Source: Patescibacteria group bacterium
Lineage (GTDB): Bacteria; Patescibacteriota; Minisyncoccia; Phycocordibacterales; JANLHH01
Direction of reading: 5' to 3'
NCBI GenBank assembly: GCA_038063375.1
Contig: JBBTVG010000026.1
Coordinates: 1-11,786, forward strand
DNA length: 11,786 nucleotides
Shown here one piece after another: positions 1,459-10,629 of this stretch (positions within the stretch are counted from its first letter, which is position 1; every line of letters begins with the position of its first letter). The position numbers and the translations under genes are program-made. Under the pieces are notes generated by a model that worked only from the letters and a program-made list of their open reading frames with translations, was not told where the DNA came from and ran no database searches.

Positions 1459-1653
1459 TTATGCGAGCGCGCGGCCGTTTTGTCCCGCACGCTCCCTCTG
1501 GATGCGCGCATAGATTTCTTCACGGTGGACAGGGACGTCCTTGGGAGCGTTAACCCCGATGCGCACTTGGTTGCCTTTGACACCGAGCACCGTGACCGTA
1601 ACGTTATCACCGATGTTGAGAGTTTCCCCAACACGCCTCGTCAAGATAAGCAT
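1459..1653 (-). CDS. csrA: Carbon storage regulator CsrA/RsmA, 64 aa, a global post-transcriptional RNA-binding regulator. The true start is the ATG at 1653-1651 ([48 protein letters not shown]...).
   Basis: The sequence closely matches the canonical CsrA signature ([10 protein letters not shown]..., [11 protein letters not shown](V)NAPK..VHREEIY). An AAGAGG Shine-Dalgarno lies 11 nt upstream of the start on the minus strand. Confidence 0.85.
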
Positions 1654-6404: not shown

Positions 6405-7712
6405 ATGTCCAATTTCCAAATTGCTCTCATCACCACCTTCGTCATATTTACCGTTGTTGCCGTTCTTATCTTTACCGGCGCCATTCCGGGCTTTAAGGCG
6501 CCCGAGGGAGGCTATGGCGGAGAAGTCGTGGTATGGGGCACGTTCCCGAAATTAAAACTAAGCAGTGCGATTGACGCGTTCAACCAACAGAACAAAGCCC
6601 TCTTTAGCCTCGCGTACGAAGAGAAGAACAAAGATTCCTTTGAGCGTGAGCTCCTTGAGGCGCTTGCTTCAGGCCGAGGTCCTGATATTTTCTTTTTGAC
6701 CCAAGACATGGTGCTCAAACACAAAGATAAAGTGTTGTTGGTCCCGTTTGAGACTCTTACCGAACGCGAGTTCAAAGATACGTTCACCGAAGAAGGAGAA
6801 TTATATCTGACGCTCGAAGGGGTGTTGGCGTTGCCGCTTTCCGTTGATCCGCTGGTGATGTATTGGAACCGTGATATTTTTTCTTCAGCTGCTATAGCGC
6901 GCCCGCCGGAATTTTGGGACGAGTTTCTTACCATTGCGCCGGCAGTGACCGAACGTGATGATGCGGGGAATGTGCTTACCAGCGCGGTCGCCCTCGGTGA
7001 ATTTGAGAATATCACGCACGCGAAAGATATTTTGTCCATGCTTATCCTGCAGGCAGGCAATAATATCGTAGAGGTGGCAGAGGACGGCAGGGTGAATGTA
7101 GTGCTGAGCAATACGCAGGAGAGCGGTTCGCAGAGAACGGAATCCGCTCTCAGGTTTTATACGGAATTTTCCAACTCAGTCAAACCGGCATACTCCTGGA
7201 ATCGTTCATTGCCACAGTCGCGGGATATGTTTGTCGCCGGTGACTTGGCTGTGTATTTTGGCTACGCGAGCGAGCTTCCCGATATTATCACCAAGAATCC
7301 CCACCTGAATTTTGACGTATCTCTCGTACCGCAGATTCGGGACAATAAGACCAAGGAAACCTTTGGGAACATGTATGCTTTGGCAATCGCTCGGAATACA
7401 GGGAAACCCCAAACGGCGTTTCAAGCACTCGTCTTAATGGCGGGAAGCGATTTCGCCAACACGGTTTCTAAAGCAATGAAACTCCCGCCCGTTCGGCGCG
7501 ACTTGTTGTCCATCAAACAAACAGATGCCTATAATTCGGTATTTTATGATTCAGCGCTCCGAGCAACCGCATGGCTAGACCCGAACCCGGAGGCATCTTA
7601 TAATGTATTTAAAGACATGGTGGAAGATGTCTCGTCAGGCAGATTTCGCATCAGCCAAGCGGTGTTGAACGCGAATACGGAGCTGAAACAATCAATAGAT
7701 TCGCGTGAATAA
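6405..7712 (+). CDS. Membrane-anchored extracellular solute-binding protein, ABC-transporter SBP family-1-like, 435 aa.
   Basis: An N-terminal hydrophobic signal-anchor (IALITTFVIFTVVAVLIFTGAI) is followed by a ~400-aa periplasmic-binding-protein-like domain. This is a by-eye resemblance to sugar/oligosaccharide SBPs. No Shine-Dalgarno is present, and the gene starts 16 nt after the methyltransferase stop. Confidence 0.55.
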   Translation: MSNFQIALITTFVIFTVVAVLIFTGAIPGFKAPEGGYGGEVVVWGTFPKLKLSSAIDAFNQQNKALFSLAYEEKNKDSFERELLEALASGRGPDIFFLTQDMVLKHKDKVLLVPFETLTEREFKDTFTEEGELYLTLEGVLALPLSVDPLVMYWNRDIFSSAAIARPPEFWDEFLTIAPAVTERDDAGNVLTSAVALGEFENITHAKDILSMLILQAGNNIVEVAEDGRVNVVLSNTQESGSQRTESALRFYTEFSNSVKPAYSWNRSLPQSRDMFVAGDLAVYFGYASELPDIITKNPHLNFDVSLVPQIRDNKTKETFGNMYALAIARNTGKPQTAFQALVLMAGSDFANTVSKAMKLPPVRRDLLSIKQTDAYNSVFYDSALRATAWLDPNPEASYNVFKDMVEDVSSGRFRISQAVLNANTELKQSIDSRE

Positions 7713-7738: not shown

Positions 7739-7780
7739 GGTTATGAAAACATTACAAATCGGGAAAATGCTTTCATAACC
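7739..7780 (+). other. Imperfect hairpin (10-bp + 4-bp stem, 12-nt loop) between the SBP gene and the first pilin gene.
   Basis: GGTTATGAAA-a-CATT (7739-7753) pairs with AATG-c-TTTCATAACC (7766-7780). No U-tract follows, so it is not a canonical intrinsic terminator. Confidence 0.35.
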
Positions 7781-7804: not shown

Positions 7805-8188
7805 ATGATCAAAATATTTAAAAAAACGGCAGTAAGAGTTTTCTATTTTCTCGTCATAGCGATGCCTGTGGTTGTTGTTGCGGCTCCGCCACTTGTGCCG
7901 TGCGGCAATAAAGGTCAACCCACGTGCGACTTTAATCAGCTCATCGGTCTGATAAAAAATCTTATGGACTTCGCGATCATCATCGCGCCGTTTCTTGCCG
8001 CTATCGCGTTTGCGTTCGCGGGCTTCTACTACTTCACGTCGGCGGGCGATACGGGGAAGGTGGAAACGGCGCACGACATATTCAGAAATACCGCCATCGG
8101 GCTTATTATCATACTCGCGGCGTGGTTTGTGGTGAAGGTGATATTGGTCGGACTTGGCGTGACAGGTGATTTTAATTTGCTCAATTAA
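7805..8188 (+). CDS. Small secreted two-TM protein, TrbC/VirB2-like type IV secretion pilin family; paralog 1 of 5.
   Basis: Sec signal peptide, then a mature ~95-aa domain with two hydrophobic helices separated by a short charged loop (SAGDTGKVETAHD). It is homologous to the four downstream ORFs. A Cys pair (PCGNKGQPTC) lies near the mature N-terminus. Confidence 0.5.
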   Translation: MIKIFKKTAVRVFYFLVIAMPVVVVAAPPLVPCGNKGQPTCDFNQLIGLIKNLMDFAIIIAPFLAAIAFAFAGFYYFTSAGDTGKVETAHDIFRNTAIGLIIILAAWFVVKVILVGLGVTGDFNLLN

Positions 8189-8204
8189 TTTAATAATAAA
8201 AGAC

Positions 8205-8585
8205 ATGAAAAATACCGCACGGAGAATTCTCACATATATCAAATGGAACCTCGTTTCGGCGCTTCTGCTAGCCCCTCTGCATTTTATATATGCGCAGACG
8301 GGCGGTGGGAGTGCAAAGGCAACATTGCAATCTCCCCTTGGTGGTGTTGCCAACCTCAATGACCTTATTGAGAAAATTCTCAAGGTGGTGGTTGATATCG
8401 GCACGCCTATCGCCGTTTTATTCATCATCTACGCGGGATTTTTGTTTGTGACGGCGCAGGGGAATGAAACGAAAGTAACAAAAGCAAAGAATGCGTTCAC
8501 CTGGGCGATCATCGGTACTGCCGTGCTCTTGGGCGCGTGGGTTCTTGCGGTTGCCATTGAAGGTACGATAGGAAACTTGAAATAG
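8205..8585 (+). CDS. TrbC/VirB2-like pilin family protein; paralog 2 of 5. The start is the ATG at 8205 (MKNTARRIL...).
   Basis: Signal peptide ending ...HFIYA|QT, then two TM helices with the loop AQGNETKVTKAKNA. It aligns with paralog 1 (IAxLFIIYAGFxFxTAxG...A...AIIGxxxLLxAW). Confidence 0.5.
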   Translation: MKNTARRILTYIKWNLVSALLLAPLHFIYAQTGGGSAKATLQSPLGGVANLNDLIEKILKVVVDIGTPIAVLFIIYAGFLFVTAQGNETKVTKAKNAFTWAIIGTAVLLGAWVLAVAIEGTIGNLK

Positions 8586-8615
8586 ATATCCAAGAAGCGT
8601 CTCTAATATTTAATT

Positions 8616-8993
8616 ATGAAAGCATATACAATCATTCTCGTCGTCTCTTTATTTGCCCCCCTAATTGCCTTTGCCCAGCCAAGAAATTTTGCGGATTTTG
8701 CGGGTGTTATCATCAATATCGGGAACAACCTAGCCCTCCTCTTTATAACCGCCGCGTTTGCCGCGTTTTTGTGGGGGGTGGCGCGAATGGTACTGCACGC
8801 CGACAGTGCCGATGAACGCGAGAAAGGAAAGAAAACCATGACATATGGTCTCATTTCGTTGTTTATTGTATCAGCGTTATGGGGCATTATGGCGCTGACA
8901 CGCAATACGTTCTTTTTTAGCGGCGGTTCTTCCAGCGGTGGCGGTAACAGGTGCAATTCAATCTTATGTCTGGACATAGGGATAAAACTGTAA
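8616..8993 (+). CDS. TrbC/VirB2-like pilin family protein; paralog 3 of 5, with a Gly/Ser-rich, Cys-containing C-terminal tail.
   Basis: Signal peptide ...LIAFA|QP. The core AAFAAFLWGVARMVLHADSADEREKGKKTMTYGLISLFIVSALWGIMAL is conserved with paralogs 4 and 5. The tail is GGSSSGGGNRCNSILC. Confidence 0.5.
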   Translation: MKAYTIILVVSLFAPLIAFAQPRNFADFAGVIINIGNNLALLFITAAFAAFLWGVARMVLHADSADEREKGKKTMTYGLISLFIVSALWGIMALTRNTFFFSGGSSSGGGNRCNSILCLDIGIKL

Positions 8994-9136
8994 AGCAGCT
9001 AGGAACATCCGCAGTGTGTATACGGGCATAATCCACAAGGGTTGTTTGTTATTTGGGCCGGAATTGGGTATGATTACGATAGGAGAATACACGTACAAAG
9101 GTCGCTTATTTTCTGCATTTGTTTATTAAAAGAATA

Positions 9137-9144
9137 TGTATAAT
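9137..9144 (+). promoter_or_regulatory. Extended -10 promoter TGTATAAT, an internal promoter ahead of pilin paralog 4.
   Basis: TGnTATAAT at 9137-9144, 20 nt upstream of the ATG at 9165, inside the only long (171-bp) gap in the array. Confidence 0.4.
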
Positions 9145-9164
9145 TTGGTTACACAGTATCAAGC

Positions 9165-9500
9165 ATGAAAAAATTTATTCCATTGATAGCCTTCCTCGTA
9201 TTGCCATCGGTAGCATTAGCACAGACTGTTCAAACGGTTATTGCAACGGTTAGCAACATTCTTAATCTTGTTATCCCCATTGTTATTACGCTTGCGGTCA
9301 TTTACTTTTTCTGGGGCCTGGCGAAGTATATTCTGAATGCTGACAACGAAGAGGCGAGAACAGAAGGAAGGAGCATCATGATCTACGGCATTATTGCCCT
9401 TTTTGTGATGGTTTCCGTGTGGGGATTGATCGGACTTGTCGGCAATACCTTTAACGTTGGACAGGGCGGTTCCGGAAGAGGATTCATTCCGACCCTCTAA
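9165..9500 (+). CDS. TrbC/VirB2-like pilin family protein; paralog 4 of 5.
   Basis: Signal peptide ...SVALA|QT. The core LAVIYFFWGLAKYILNADNEEARTEGRSIMIYGIIALFVMVSVWGLIGL is present. The tail is Gly-rich (GQGGSGRG). Confidence 0.5.
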   Translation: MKKFIPLIAFLVLPSVALAQTVQTVIATVSNILNLVIPIVITLAVIYFFWGLAKYILNADNEEARTEGRSIMIYGIIALFVMVSVWGLIGLVGNTFNVGQGGSGRGFIPTL

Positions 9501-9512
9501 CGCGTACCCCGT

Positions 9513-9782
9513 ATGGATATTGGCGCGCTGATTGCAAAAATAGAGCAGAATATCATTCAACCGCTGATTGGTGTTCTTTTTGCGCTCGCGTTTGCGATAT
9601 TTTTGTGGGGAGTAGCGCGTTTTATCTTTCAATCAGATGATGAGAGCGCGCGCGAGCAAGGCAAACAACATATTATCTGGGGGTTGGTGGGAATGTTCAT
9701 CATGGTGTCGGTCTTTGCCATCATTCATCTTATTGTGGCAACGTTTGGCATACCTCCACCACCGAATCTGCCGATATTCTAA
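9513..9782 (+). CDS. TrbC/VirB2-like pilin family protein; paralog 5 of 5. It lacks a cleavable signal peptide and starts 12 nt after the paralog 4 stop.
   Basis: The protein begins directly with the region that is the mature domain in the other paralogs (DIGALIAKIEQNIIQPLIGVLFALAFAIFLWGVARFIFQSDDESAREQGKQHIIWGLVGMFIMVSVFAI). An in-frame stop lies 12 nt upstream, so no N-terminal extension is possible. The tail is Pro-rich. Confidence 0.45.
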   Translation: MDIGALIAKIEQNIIQPLIGVLFALAFAIFLWGVARFIFQSDDESAREQGKQHIIWGLVGMFIMVSVFAIIHLIVATFGIPPPPNLPIF

Positions 9783-9791
9783 TTCTAGAAT

Positions 9792-9826
9792 AAAAAAACC
9801 GTCCCGATCATATCGAGACGGTTTTT
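9792..9826. terminator. Bidirectional rho-independent terminator ending the pilin array.
   Basis: A7 run, then hairpin AACCGTC-cCGAT-cat-ATCGa-GACGGTT (9797-9823), then T5. Confidence 0.7.
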
Positions 9827-9846
9827 GCGGGCATCTTTGAATATTC

Positions 9847-9883
9847 CAAAAAGAAAAGGCGAGAAGATAAGTATCTTCTCGCC
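9847..9883 (-). terminator. Rho-independent terminator of the minus-strand SPFH operon.
   Basis: Perfect 11-bp stem GGCGAGAAGAT-aagt-ATCTTCTCGCC (9858-9883). On the minus strand it is followed by UUUUCUUUUU. It lies directly downstream of the stop at 9892. Confidence 0.75.
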
Positions 9884-9891
9884 TTGATTGT

Positions 9892-10629
9892 CTACATACG
9901 ACACGCACGAGCTGTTGTGCATACGTAAACCGGCTGGTCTCCACCTAAAGAACGAAAGTGTATCGTTGCCCCCTGGAGCTCCCACATCTTCTTTGATGTT
10001 ATAGGAGTGTGGTTAAAGGGTGATTGTTTAAACGCCCACACAACCGCTCCGTTTCTCCTGAACACCGCTTCCAACCCTCTTTGTTCAGGAGCATTCCAGT
10101 AGATACTCGGTCCTACGTAGATCACTTCTGTTGAGTATCTTCCGGATGGTGCGATAACTTTTATCACACCACGTGGAGTACTCACCGCCGCTGATTGCTT
10201 ACGCTTATCATCGTCCTCACCCCAGTTTATTTGTGAGATGAAGCCGGCGATAAGGACGACTGCAATGAGCAAAGAAAGGACAACAACTTGCCGTTTATTA
10301 CCCTCTTTCTTAAAAACAAGATTAAGGAGCAATAAAACGATAACAGCGATTTGTGTCCCCCAAAAGAACAGCCCCTTGCTGATCCACCATGCCCATACGC
10401 CCGGTAACACCATCCATACCACGAGATTAAACAGCAACCACCCTCCCAAAACAAGAACAAGATTTGATTGTGGTAGGGCAGAGAGGGGCTGACCTTGTTC
10501 TTTCGTCCCCTTTTTCTCATATCCCTTTTTCGGTTGGTCGCCTTCTCCTTTCTCGCGTACCGCAAGTGCTACTTTGCCAATAATGATAAGCAAGAGTGCG
10601 AACAGGAAAATAATTATTTCAATTCTCAT
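9892..10629 (-). CDS. Hypothetical polytopic membrane protein, 245 aa, with ~4 TM helices and a ~110-aa C-terminal soluble domain. It is translationally coupled to the upstream SPFH gene and may be an NfeD-like partner.
   Basis: Its ATG (10629-10627) overlaps the SPFH TGA (10628-10626) as ATGA. A Shine-Dalgarno-like AAGGGGGTG lies upstream. It has an N-terminal TM, a K/E/G-rich linker, three further hydrophobic helices and a C-terminal domain with a G-V...G...E...W.A pattern only weakly reminiscent of the NfeD OB-fold. Confidence 0.45.
   Translation of the reverse strand: MRIEIIIFLFALLLIIIGKVALAVREKGEGDQPKKGYEKKGTKEQGQPLSALPQSNLVLVLGGWLLFNLVVWMVLPGVWAWWISKGLFFWGTQIAVIVLLLLNLVFKKEGNKRQVVVLSLLIAVVLIAGFISQINWGEDDDKRKQSAAVSTPRGVIKVIAPSGRYSTEVIYVGPSIYWNAPEQRGLEAVFRRNGAVVWAFKQSPFNHTPITSKKMWELQGATIHFRSLGGDQPVYVCTTARACRM

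What the first reader, a model, noticed from the sequence alone, without database searches (positions are those of the whole stretch)
7805..9782. Tandem array of five divergent paralogous small secreted two-TM proteins (T4SS VirB2/TrbC pilin-like)
Five consecutive same-strand ORFs of 89-127 aa share one architecture: a Sec signal peptide, a ~25-aa amphipathic segment, TM1, a short charged loop and TM2. Three of them share a conserved core, (F/Y)(L/F)WG(V/L)A(R/K)...(A/S)D(S/N/D)(A/E)(D/E)(E/A)R(E/T)(K/E/Q)G(K/R)..(M/I)(T/I)(Y/W)G(L/I)..(L/M)F(I/V)(V/M)(S)(A/V)(L/W/F). The nucleotide sequences are well diverged, so these are old paralogs rather than a recent duplication. This is the hallmark architecture of conjugative/T4SS VirB2-TrbC pilins. 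Arrays of such pilin-like genes are a feature of CPR/Patescibacteria, whose surface appendages for attaching to host cells are poorly characterised. No VirB4/VirB6/VirD4 gene is in this window, so the array appears uncoupled from a recognisable secretion ATPase here.
Basis: partly seen in the sequence, partly recalled or inferred. Interest (0 to 1): 0.7.

Follow-up and report, generated by a model that had tools for sequence, protein, structure and literature searches.

The report
VirB2-like pilin gene array, CPR bacterium
Five neighbouring genes of an ultrasmall groundwater bacterium (Candidatus Yonathbacteria) encode small two-helix membrane proteins of the conjugative-pilin (VirB2-like) family; such arrays were already described in this bacterial group in 2023-2025, so this is a well-supported further example, not a new kind of system.

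Summary
The array is real. Five + strand genes lie at 7805-9782: A 127 aa, B 126 aa, C 125 aa, D 111 aa, E 89 aa. All five score above the curated cut-off of Pfam PF18895 (T4SS_pilin). Orthologues of B also match TrbC/VirB2 (PF04956). AlphaFold models of D and E are helical hairpins. One detail of the finding is wrong: E has no signal peptide, and this holds for 77 of 78 orthologues.

The organism is a Candidatus Yonathbacteria (Paceibacteria, CPR) from Hainich groundwater. NCBI already names the D protein 'pilin'.

Tandem arrays of divergent VirB2-like pilins in Patescibacteria are published: Wang 2023 (essential array in Southlakia) and Quinonero-Coronel 2025 (441 arrays of 2-11 genes). This is therefore a new member of a known kind.

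What I add:
- In 80 other species the array keeps an ordered grammar, (A)-B-(C/D)n-D-E.
- Genes cluster by position, not by genome.
- A promoter-like gap precedes D.
- A sugar-binding-protein-like gene lies directly upstream in 63 of 69 loci.
- No VirB4 lies within 10 kb of the D gene in any locus examined.
- The array shows no amino-acid variation within the population.

This fits co-assembling, specialised subunits better than antigenic variation. Dependence on a VirB4 machine encoded elsewhere is inferred, not shown.

The parts
7805..8188 (+). Pilin A (127 aa), class A. It has a leader of about 26 aa, then a mature N-terminus with a two-cysteine loop (PCGNKGQPTCDFN), then the helical hairpin.
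   Evidence: PF18895 36.4 bits, above the 26.6 cut-off. Clusters with the first gene of the arrays in L008 and L010, bootstrap 99.5. 43 of 45 class-A proteins have at least 2 Cys.
8205..8585 (+). Pilin B (126 aa from the ATG at 8205), class B, the most TrbC/VirB2-like member. It has a leader ending IYA|Q and a roughly 25-aa extracellular N-terminal segment.
   Evidence: PF18895 45.5 bits. TrbC PF04956 24.9 bits, below the 27.9 cut-off. Of 75 class-B sequences (74 orthologues plus the window's B), 73 match PF18895 and 60 match TrbC at E<=1e-3. Class-B clade bootstrap 100.
8616..8993 (+). Pilin C (125 aa), the fastest-evolving slot. It has a Gly/Ser-rich C-terminal tail with two cysteines.
   Evidence: PF18895 28.9 bits. 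31-37% identical to the genes at the same position in relatives, against 52-58% for D.
8994..9164 (+). Intergenic gap before D with a promoter-like site: ATCCACA at 9031-9037, -35 TTGTTA at 9046-9051, -10 TATGAT at 9069-9074 and GGTCGC at 9100-9105.
   Evidence: The gap before D has a median of 109.5 nt in 72 loci, against 5 nt for the other gaps inside the arrays. TCCAC occurs in 34 of 72 gaps (shuffle mean 3.1), about 9-10 nt upstream of a -35/-10 pair. GGTCG occurs in 24 of 72 (shuffle mean 2.7). Promoter scan hit; motif positions. Function is inferred.
9165..9500 (+). Pilin D (111 aa), the most conserved member and the candidate major subunit. It has a leader ending ALA|Q and a Gly-rich C-terminal tail with a conserved (V/I)P.
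   Evidence: PF18895 44.1 bits. 52-58% identical to orthologues. AlphaFold with 61 sequences gives pLDDT 75.6 and helices 5-57 and 62-95. Relatives are found in 284 species genomes. NCBI names the 97%-identical protein 'pilin'.
9513..9782 (+). Pilin E (89 aa), the leaderless terminal member of the array.
   Evidence: PF18895 34.5 bits. AlphaFold gives pLDDT 82.4 and helices 3-39 and 44-77. Class-E clade bootstrap 93.5. The last two genes are D then E in 75 of 81 arrays, and 77 of 78 E-types have only two hydrophobic segments.
9794..9826 (+). Intrinsic-terminator-like hairpin followed by TTTTT; it ends the array's transcript.
   Evidence: The fold of 9783-9900 has z = -6.3. A second hairpin at 9856-9885 serves the convergent gene on the - strand.
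6405..7712 (+). Membrane-anchored, sugar-type solute-binding-protein-like gene (435 aa). It is the conserved upstream neighbour of the array. It is context here, and a functional link is unproven.
   Evidence: SBP_bac_8 66.7 bits and SBP_bac_1 62.2 bits. Distantly MalE-like. Directly upstream of the array in 63 of 69 loci, with a median gap of 2 nt.
7739..7780 (+). Hairpin between the solute-binding-protein-like gene and pilin A (15-nt arms, 12-nt loop).
   Evidence: The fold has z = -2.6. It is specific to this lineage, because in most relatives the two genes abut. Its role is unknown.

Best explanation
The five genes encode VirB2/TrbC-superfamily pilins (Pfam T4SS_pilin) of a Candidatus Yonathbacteria, and belong to the published class of Patescibacteria 'VirB2 pilin arrays'.

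Shown:
- Family membership and the helical-hairpin architecture.
- Conservation of the array, in a fixed order of paralogue classes, across at least 80 species.
- A chromosomal location among housekeeping genes, with no secretion ATPase within 10 kb on either side of the D gene.

Inferred mechanism:
- A to D are exported by Sec and their leaders are cut by signal peptidase. This leaves hairpins in the membrane with both ends outside and the charged loop inside.
- E reaches the same topology without a leader.
- A monoderm-type type IV secretion machine (VirB4, TrsD, VirB3, VirB6), encoded elsewhere in the genome, extracts the subunits and polymerises them into a filament or conduit. This structure crosses the wall towards the host cell on which such bacteria are thought to depend.
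- D, which is the most conserved member and has its own promoter-like site, is the major subunit.
- A, B and C, with variable extracellular N- or C-terminal extensions, are minor or specialised subunits (tip, adaptor or initiator).
- E is a membrane-proximal or priming subunit.
- The paralogues work together. They are not interchangeable variants.
For: Family:
- PF18895 above cut-off for all five.
- Sub-threshold hits of all five to the Mycoplasma ICE 'pilin-like conjugal transfer protein' NF045849.
- 60 of 75 class-B sequences (74 orthologues plus the window's own B) match TrbC/VirB2, and one fused relative scores 35.3 bits, above the cut-off.
- The best PDB sequence hit of the D profile is the pKM101 pilin TraM, E = 0.044.
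- The models are helical hairpins.
- NCBI names the protein 'pilin'.

Link to type IV secretion:
- Wang 2023 showed an essential pilin series inside the T4SS cluster of Southlakia (PMC10633639).
- In Paceibacteria genomes, PF18895 genes sit next to VirB3/TrsD/VirB4, and distal pilin or PrgF runs co-exist with VirB4 elsewhere. One example is Campbellbacteria, with genes 174-176 against VirB4 at gene 619 (PMC12102498 Table S3).
- 6 of 7 Yonathbacteria genomes in that study have VirB4.
- Class-A-like pilins occur fused to SLT or lysozyme-like (VirB1-type) domains. A protein with an SLT_3 match just below cut-off (26.4 against 27 bits) abuts the array in 5 loci.

Co-assembling specialised subunits:
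- Genes cluster by position, not by genome (bootstraps 99.5, 100 and 93.5).
- The order (A)-B-(C/D)n-D-E holds in 81 arrays.
- B, D and E diverge no faster than their housekeeping neighbours.
- There are 0 non-synonymous and 1 synonymous differences in the array between strains of the population, against 30-31 differences in a neighbouring gene.
- A genuine three-domain pilin fusion exists whose internal domains are leaderless like E.

D as major subunit: a conserved gap of about 110 nt with a promoter-like site and enriched motifs lies only in front of D.
Against: - VirB4 was not found in the same genome, because the tools could not scan it.
- No VirB4-like gene lies within 10 kb on either side of the D gene in about 85 loci.
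- Of six array-bearing draft genomes that are also in the published table, three are listed without VirB4.
- No pilus has ever been seen in these organisms.
- The major and minor subunit roles rest on conservation and on a consensus promoter match only.
Confidence: 0.6

Rival explanations
1. A machine of its own. The array, together with the membrane-anchored sugar-binding-protein-like gene directly upstream, forms a surface or trans-envelope structure that does not need VirB4. An example would be an uptake conduit or an attachment fibre assembled by Sec/YidC alone.
For: - The array is never near VirB4 in about 85 loci.
- The binding-protein-like gene abuts the array in 63 of 69 loci, with a median gap of 2 nt.
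- 3 of 6 array-bearing draft genomes are listed without VirB4 in the published table.
- The array persists as a unit when the upstream synteny is lost (L011).
Against: - gyrA and a methyltransferase are conserved in the same gene string (57 loci), so adjacency may be inherited gene order, not function.
- The three genomes without VirB4 are drafts.
- Family members sit beside VirB4 in other Paceibacteria and are essential within a T4SS cluster in Southlakia.
- No VirB2-type pilin is known to polymerise without VirB4 (established knowledge).
Confidence: 0.2
2. A variation repertoire. The paralogues are alternative major pilins used one at a time to match different host strains or to evade recognition. 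This has been proposed for Patescibacteria arrays by analogy with Bartonella and Anaplasma virB2 copies (PMC12102498).
For: Identity within the array is low, 15-40%. The extracellular N- and C-terminal segments differ between paralogues. The published hypothesis is quoted.
Against: - Each slot has orthologues in other species that are more similar (43-58%) than the paralogues are to each other.
- The order of the classes is fixed in 81 arrays.
- There is no amino-acid polymorphism within the population.
- There are no long DNA repeats that could drive recombination.
- Neighbouring domains can be fused into one protein.
Confidence: 0.1
3. Unrelated small membrane proteins, such as holins, bacteriocin-immunity proteins or membrane stabilisers, that only resemble pilins because any two-helix hairpin does.
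For: Fold searches return only generic hairpins. The profiles of D and B find no significant PDB sequence match.
Against: - Five of five exceed the curated PF18895 cut-off.
- 60 of 75 class-B sequences match TrbC/VirB2.
- There are no PHROG holin hits.
- Fusions to VirB1-type lysozyme domains exist.
- The context is chromosomal housekeeping genes, not phage or bacteriocin genes.
Confidence: 0.04

Closest known systems
VirB2-like pilin arrays of Patescibacteria (Quinonero-Coronel et al. 2025, PMC12102498): 441 arrays of 2-11 genes in 383 assemblies
   Same: Detected with the same Pfam models (PF18895, PF04956). The genes are in tandem on the same strand. Identity within an array is low (published mean 25%, maximum 54%; here 15-40%). 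The phylum is the same.
   Different: The published emphasis is on arrays near virB4, and on Microgenomatia and Saccharimonadia. This array is in Paceibacteria, far from any virB4, in a conserved gyrA-methyltransferase-binding-protein string. In that paper's Table S3, comparable distal runs in Campbellbacteria are filed as 'FATA_PrgF' and not as VirB2. I did not find the fixed order of classes, the leaderless last member or the internal promoter-like gap in the parts of the paper I read.
Pilin series of the Southlakia epibionticum ML1 T4SS cluster (SEML1_0006-0019; Wang et al. 2023, PMC10633639)
   Same: Several sequence-divergent, structurally similar VirB2-like pilins in a monoderm CPR bacterium. 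No relaxase or obvious DNA-transfer role.
   Different: There the pilins lie inside the T4SS gene cluster and were shown by Tn-seq to be essential. Here there are no experimental data and no adjacent T4SS genes. The class is also different (Saccharimonadia against Paceibacteria).
TrbC/VirB2/TraM/TraA conjugative pilins of Gram-negative T4SS (Pfam PF04956; pili of RP4, Ti, pKM101 and F)
   Same: A leader peptide followed by a two-helix hairpin with a short charged loop. Class B reaches this Pfam model in 60 of 75 sequences (74 orthologues plus the window's B). The best PDB sequence hit of the D profile is pKM101 TraM (E = 0.044).
   Different: - The window's own B scores 24.9 bits, below the 27.9 cut-off.
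- These systems usually have one pilin gene, inside the T4SS operon.
- They work in a diderm envelope.
- No sign of a cyclisation or acetylation partner was seen here.
Mbov_0395 / MMCAP2_0565 pilin-like conjugal transfer protein of Mycoplasma ICEs (NCBIfam NF045849)
   Same: A small two-helix protein of a monoderm (MPF-FATA type) conjugation system. All five window proteins hit it at E from 7e-8 to 6e-4.
   Different: All hits are below the curated cut-off (19.5-32 bits against 40). That protein is a single gene in a mobile element.
Tandem virB2 paralogues of Bartonella and Anaplasma phagocytophilum
   Same: Several VirB2 copies in a row in an organism that depends on a host.
   Different: Those copies are thought to vary for immune evasion. 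Here each slot is conserved across species and invariant within the population.
PrgF of Enterococcus pCF10 (MPF-FATA component of unknown function)
   Same: A 75-aa membrane protein encoded just upstream of the VirB6-, VirB3- and VirB4-like genes. The published CONJScan PrgF profile hits comparable Paceibacteria genes.
   Different: pCF10 PrgF itself shows no PF18895 match and no profile similarity to the D or E alignments here. The relationship could not be reproduced.

Membership tests
Pfam PF18895 T4SS_pilin | Profile score at or above the curated gathering cut-off (26.6 bits) over most of the 71-position model | tested here: met
   A 36.4, B 44.3 (45.5 from the ATG at 8205), C 28.9, D 44.1, E 34.5 bits. 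The matches cover profile positions 7-71, 2-70, 9-67, 5-71 and 5-68.
Pfam PF18895 T4SS_pilin | Two hydrophobic helices joined by a short polar loop (helical hairpin) | tested here: met
   Hydropathy segments. AlphaFold D: helices 5-57 and 62-95, pLDDT 75.6. AlphaFold E: helices 3-39 and 44-77, pLDDT 82.4.
VirB2-type pilin precursor (general) | N-terminal cleavable leader peptide | tested here: inconclusive
   A to D have a basic N-region, a hydrophobic core and an AxA-like site (judged by eye, no SignalP available). E has none, as do 77 of 78 orthologues.
Pfam PF04956 TrbC/VirB2 | Profile score at or above 27.9 bits | tested here: not met
   The window's B scores 24.4-24.9 bits, and the other four do not hit. 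Among the 75 class-B sequences, 60 hit at E<=1e-3 (best 4.2e-10), and a fused relative scores 35.3 bits. I therefore call it VirB2-like, not a PF04956 member.
Patescibacteria VirB2 pilin array (as defined in PMC12102498) | At least two genes hitting PF18895/PF04956 (i-E<0.001, more than 50% profile coverage), in tandem or separated by one non-pilin gene, in a Patescibacteria genome | tested here: met
   Five adjacent hits with more than 80% profile coverage. D is 97% identical to a Candidatus Yonathbacteria protein.
Patescibacteria VirB2 pilin array (as defined in PMC12102498) | High divergence within the array (published mean 25%, maximum 54% identity) | tested here: met
   25-40% by pairwise alignment. 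15-34% in the multiple alignment.
Functional type IV secretion pilus | VirB4-family ATPase (with VirB3/VirB6/TrsD) in the same genome | not testable with these tools
   None is in the window, in the 20-kb stretch (10 kb on each side of the D gene) fetched from the 144-kb contig that carries the window (L001), or in the same span of 80 species. The rest of the genome could not be read. The published table lists VirB4 in 6 of 7 Yonathbacteria genomes, but in only 3 of 6 array-bearing drafts that I could match.
Functional type IV secretion pilus | Polymerisation of the subunits into an extracellular filament | not testable with these tools
   No multimer prediction or experiment was possible. Fold searches are non-discriminating.
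Phage holins / small lysis proteins | Match to a holin family, in a phage or lysis-cassette context | tested here: not met
   PHROGs gave no hit for four proteins and one E = 0.096 hit to a family of unknown function. The neighbours are gyrA, a methyltransferase, a solute-binding-protein-like gene and an SPFH (Band_7) gene.

The most novel reading that the evidence does not exclude
The Paceibacteria array is not an accessory of the VirB4 machine. It would be a separate, ancient operon of four to seven fixed slots. The slots are a class-A pilin with a disulphide loop, a TrbC-like class B, one or more C/D copies, a separately promoted D and a leaderless E. Together with the membrane-anchored sugar-binding-protein-like gene that abuts it in 63 of 69 species, it would build a trans-envelope fibre for attachment to the host cell or for uptake from it. 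This fibre would be assembled without a dedicated ATPase, or by an unrecognised one.
Probability: 0.12. Interest if true: 0.7.

Novelty: new member of a known kind. Interest (0 to 1): 0.3.

Why it matters
Patescibacteria make up a large share of uncultured bacterial diversity and appear to live attached to other microbes. The only genetic study so far found a type IV secretion cluster and its pilin series to be essential, and a 2025 review speculates that the resulting pilus is the conduit through which these cells obtain what they cannot make.

This window adds no new principle. The comparison made here does show that in Paceibacteria the pilins form a deeply conserved, ordered set. That set has a probable major subunit, specialised minor subunits and a leaderless terminal member, and it is encoded apart from the ATPase. 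This gives concrete candidates, and a testable co-assembly model against the variation model, for anyone who brings a Paceibacteria co-culture to proteomics or cryo-electron tomography.

Tried and rejected
2. Sequence profiles against the PDB. The D profile's best hit was pKM101 TraM at only E = 0.044. The class-B profiles gave no meaningful hit.
3. PrgF link. The published work files similar genes as PrgF. pCF10 PrgF itself showed no similarity here, so this remains inconclusive.
4. Hunting VirB4.
   - I read the contexts of 12 looked-up proteins and 80 species loci.
   - I tested every ORF of at least 450 aa that carries a Walker A motif and several others without one. They turned out to be PrkA, SMC, RecG, a class I tRNA synthetase, and PKD-domain or DUF11 proteins, and two gave no Pfam hit.
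   - No T4SS gene was found.
   - I could not read the rest of the genome.
5. An apparent strain variant lacking genes B and C (L006) is only a 100-N scaffold gap.
6. D and E lie in the same frame, separated by TAA plus 12 nt, which suggested read-through. The frames agree in only 2 of 5 loci, so this is chance.
7. A 671-aa 'pilin' next to where the binding-protein gene should be (L078) is not a binding-protein fusion. It is a pilin with a roughly 500-aa Gly/Ser/Thr-rich extension.
8. An RNA element in the gap before D. There was no Rfam hit and no unusual folding (z = 0.55).
9. Holin or phage origin. There were no PHROG matches.
Full report
**The observation**

The window carries five adjacent + strand genes. 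They are A (7805-8188, 127 aa), B (8205-8585, 126 aa), C (8616-8993, 125 aa), D (9165-9500, 111 aa) and E (9513-9782, 89 aa). Public gene calls on near-identical contigs agree with these coordinates, including the ATG at 8205 for B rather than the overlapping GTG at 8166.

Each protein has two long hydrophobic segments separated by a short charged loop. C/D/E are 35-40% identical to one another, and A and B are 25-28% identical to every other member. At the DNA level the only repeat between genes worth noting is 33 nt at 82%, so the copies are old.

One detail of the finding is wrong. E has no signal peptide. It starts at the amphipathic segment, and D's TAA stop lies 12 nt upstream in the same frame, so no longer reading is possible.

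**What the proteins are**

- All five exceed the curated cut-off of Pfam PF18895 (T4SS_pilin), with 36.4, 44.3, 28.9, 44.1 and 34.5 bits against 26.6.
- B also approaches TrbC/VirB2 (PF04956) at 24.4-24.9 bits against 27.9.
- All five give sub-threshold hits to the Mycoplasma ICE 'pilin-like conjugal transfer protein' family.
- Among 75 sequences of class B (74 orthologues from other species plus the window's own B), 73 match PF18895 and 60 match TrbC/VirB2 at E<=1e-3. A fused relative scores 35.3 bits on TrbC, above its cut-off.
- AlphaFold models are helical hairpins. D has pLDDT 75.6 with helices 5-57 and 62-95. E has pLDDT 82.4 with helices 3-39 and 44-77.
- The D profile's best PDB sequence hit is the pKM101 pilin TraM, at only E = 0.044.
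- No phage holin family matches.

**Whose genome it is**

The same locus is present on more than 20 contigs from Hainich groundwater metagenomes, including one of 144 kb. D is 97% identical to a protein that NCBI names 'MAG: pilin [Candidatus Yonathbacteria bacterium]'. Close relatives of B carry the same name.

The family is large. A profile of D finds 13,144 representatives at E<=1e-3 among 1.84 billion clusters at 50% identity.

**What is already known**

- Wang et al. 2023 reported an essential series of predicted pilins inside the T4SS cluster of Southlakia epibionticum (PMC10633639).
- Quinonero-Coronel et al. 2025 searched 3,035 Patescibacteria genomes with PF18895 and PF04956. They reported 441 arrays of 2-11 pilin genes in 383 assemblies, with mean identity 25% and maximum 54%. 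The pilin gene was near virB4 in 1,135 of 1,948 assemblies (PMC12102498).
- A 2025 review describes these arrays as a remarkable feature of a monoderm T4SS and speculates on a conduit function (PMC12857230).

**Context**

In the window the array follows an S1-domain ribosomal-protein-like gene, csrA, a metallo-beta-lactamase-fold gene, gyrA, a methyltransferase and a membrane-anchored solute-binding-protein-like gene. It is followed by a convergent membrane-protein gene and an SPFH (Band_7) gene. There is no T4SS gene.

The same gene string surrounds the array in distant relatives in which D is only 50-58% identical. In a Lloydbacteria genome the array persists without the upstream string.

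A scan of one genome per GTDB species found D relatives in 284 species, and I analysed the best 80 loci.
- In all of them D sits in a same-strand tandem array. The 64 complete arrays have 4 to 9 genes, mostly 4 to 6.
- The binding-protein-like gene is directly upstream in 63 of 69 loci that have enough sequence, with a median gap of 2 nt. gyrA is present in 57 loci.
- No recurrent large ATPase family other than GyrA, IF-2 and ClpB appears within 10 kb on either side of the D gene.
- None of the remaining large ORFs that I tested against Pfam (all those carrying a Walker A motif, plus several others) is VirB4-like.

**Structure of the array across species**

In a tree of 23 pilins from five genomes the genes cluster by position, not by genome. 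Class A has bootstrap 99.5, class B 100 and class E 93.5. A and B together form one deep branch (99), and C, D and E form the other (100).

Classifying all 418 pilin-domain ORFs gives the grammar (A)-B-(C/D)n-D-E. The last two genes are D then E in 75 of 81 arrays.
- Class E has a median length of 87 aa, and 77 of 78 members have only two hydrophobic segments. Leaderlessness is therefore a conserved trait.
- Class A carries a two-cysteine motif at the mature N-terminus (43 of 45 have at least 2 Cys), whereas 128 of 163 class-D proteins have no cysteine.
- B, D and E are 46-58% identical between species. This is like the neighbouring methyltransferase, beta-lactamase-fold and binding-protein genes (45-59%). 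C is the fast-evolving slot at 31-37%.

Within the Hainich population the 1.75 kb of pilin coding sequence has one synonymous and no non-synonymous difference between strains. The adjacent membrane-protein gene has 30-31 differences.

Many relatives are single proteins with two or three pilin domains: 65 of the best 150 by summed score. One of them is an uninterrupted standard-code ORF seen in two independent assemblies. Only its first domain has a leader.

Taken together, these results argue that the paralogues are distinct, co-operating subunits. They do not look like a repertoire for antigenic or host-range variation.

**Regulatory features**

The gap before D is long in nearly all species, with a median of 109.5 nt. 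The other gaps inside the arrays have a median of 5 nt, and the D-to-E gap 14 nt.

Two motifs are enriched in this gap.
- TCCAC(A) occurs in 34 of 72 gaps (shuffle mean 3.1), about 98 nt before the start codon. It lies 9-10 nt upstream of a -35/-10-like pair.
- GGTCG occurs in 24 of 72 gaps (shuffle mean 2.7), about 42 nt before the start codon.

In the window these are ATCCACA at 9031-9037, TTGTTA at 9046-9051, TATGAT at 9069-9074 and GGTCGC at 9100-9105. The leader RNA is not notably structured (z = 0.55). A strong terminator-like hairpin follows E (z = -6.3). I infer that D and E have their own promoter, which fits D being the abundant major subunit. This is not shown.

**Link to type IV secretion**

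This link is the weakest step. I could not read the rest of the genome.

Support from the published tables and from domain fusions:
- 6 of 7 Yonathbacteria genomes have VirB4.
- In Nomurabacteria, a PF18895 gene lies beside VirB3/TrsD/VirB4 while a distal pair lies elsewhere.
- In Campbellbacteria, three consecutive genes filed as 'FATA_PrgF' (174-176) lie far from VirB4 (gene 619).
- Class-A-like pilins occur fused to SLT or lysozyme-like domains, the VirB1 function.
- A protein with an SLT_3 match just below cut-off (26.4 against 27 bits) abuts the array in 5 loci.

Against:
- Three of six array-bearing draft genomes that I could match are listed without VirB4.
- The relationship to pCF10 PrgF could not be reproduced.

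**Verdict**

The locus is a new member of the known class of Patescibacteria VirB2-like pilin arrays.

The most likely mechanism is Sec export and leader cleavage of A to D, leaderless insertion of E, and assembly into a filament or conduit by a VirB4 machine encoded elsewhere. D would be the major subunit, and the other members would be specialised subunits. I put this at about 0.6. A VirB4-independent structure that works with the adjacent binding-protein-like gene is at about 0.2. A variation repertoire is at about 0.1.

Interest is modest (0.3). The conserved grammar, the leaderless terminal member and the remote, housekeeping location are useful refinements, not a new principle.

Noticed in passing
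window 9892-10629 (- strand): The 245-aa membrane-protein gene convergent with the array is a hot spot of strain differences within the Hainich population. It has 30-31 SNPs in 738 bp (21 synonymous, 9-10 non-synonymous). The five pilin genes have one synonymous change and the SPFH gene has none. The beta-lactamase-fold gene (2113-2748) is a second hot spot with 11-13 SNPs.
   Followed up: partly
window 6405-7712; loci L012-L091: An orphan, membrane-anchored, sugar-type solute-binding-protein-like gene has no permease or ATPase gene beside it. It abuts the pilin array in 63 of 69 species, with a median gap of 2 nt. The link may be functional, or it may only be inherited gene order.
   Followed up: partly
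window 9031-9105; upstream of the D gene in L012-L091: Conserved motifs TCCAC(A) and GGTCG lie in the promoter-like gap before the D-type pilin gene. Both are about tenfold above the shuffled expectation. I do not recognise either as a known binding site.
   Followed up: partly
L001 12766-13593 and L002 11950-12777 (just beyond the right end of the window): An rve-family integrase (IS element) lies between the SPFH gene and a collagen-repeat gene in some contigs of the population. It is absent in others (L003, L005), so it is an insertion polymorphism.
   Followed up: no
window 1459-1653 (- strand): A csrA gene (64 aa, PF02599) is present in a genome region with no flagellar genes. Its target in such reduced bacteria is unclear. 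The putative D leader contains one GGA.
   Followed up: no
window 9498-9515: D and E are in the same reading frame, separated only by TAA and four codons. The frames coincide in 2 of 5 loci compared, so I treat this as chance. Genuine multi-pilin fusion proteins do exist elsewhere.
   Followed up: yes
L099 125-1186 (also L100): A 353-aa uninterrupted ORF holds three pilin domains joined by Gly/Ser-rich linkers. Only the first domain has a leader. A D-like gene and an E-like gene follow it. 65 of the best 150 representatives have two or three pilin domains.
   Followed up: partly
P0123, P0125, P0138, P0144, P0145; L007 19558-20351 (= L092 10001-10834): Class-A-like pilin domains occur fused to SLT (PF01464) or SLT_3 (PF18896) lysozyme-like domains. 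In genomes whose array lacks class A, a lone class-A-like pilin with a roughly 130-aa C-terminal extension lies about 9 kb downstream, after clpB.
   Followed up: partly
L078 6736-8751; L060 2506-3552: The first pilin of one array has a roughly 500-aa Gly/Ser/Thr-rich N-terminal extension. A 348-aa protein in another array combines a full TrbC/VirB2 match with further pilin domains.
   Followed up: no
downstream of the arrays in the window, L008, L011 and others: SPFH (Band_7) genes recur on the opposite strand just downstream of the array in about 25 of 81 loci. They are only about 23% identical between lineages.
   Followed up: partly
window 7739-7780: A 15-bp-stem hairpin (z = -2.6) lies in the 92-nt gap between the binding-protein-like gene and pilin A. 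Most relatives have no gap there.
   Followed up: no
L001 (ERZ1286166 contig_2527) and L006: The 144-kb contig differs from the window mainly by 22 small gaps that split genes, which looks like uncorrected long-read error. L006 has a 100-N scaffold gap that hides genes B and C.
   Followed up: yes
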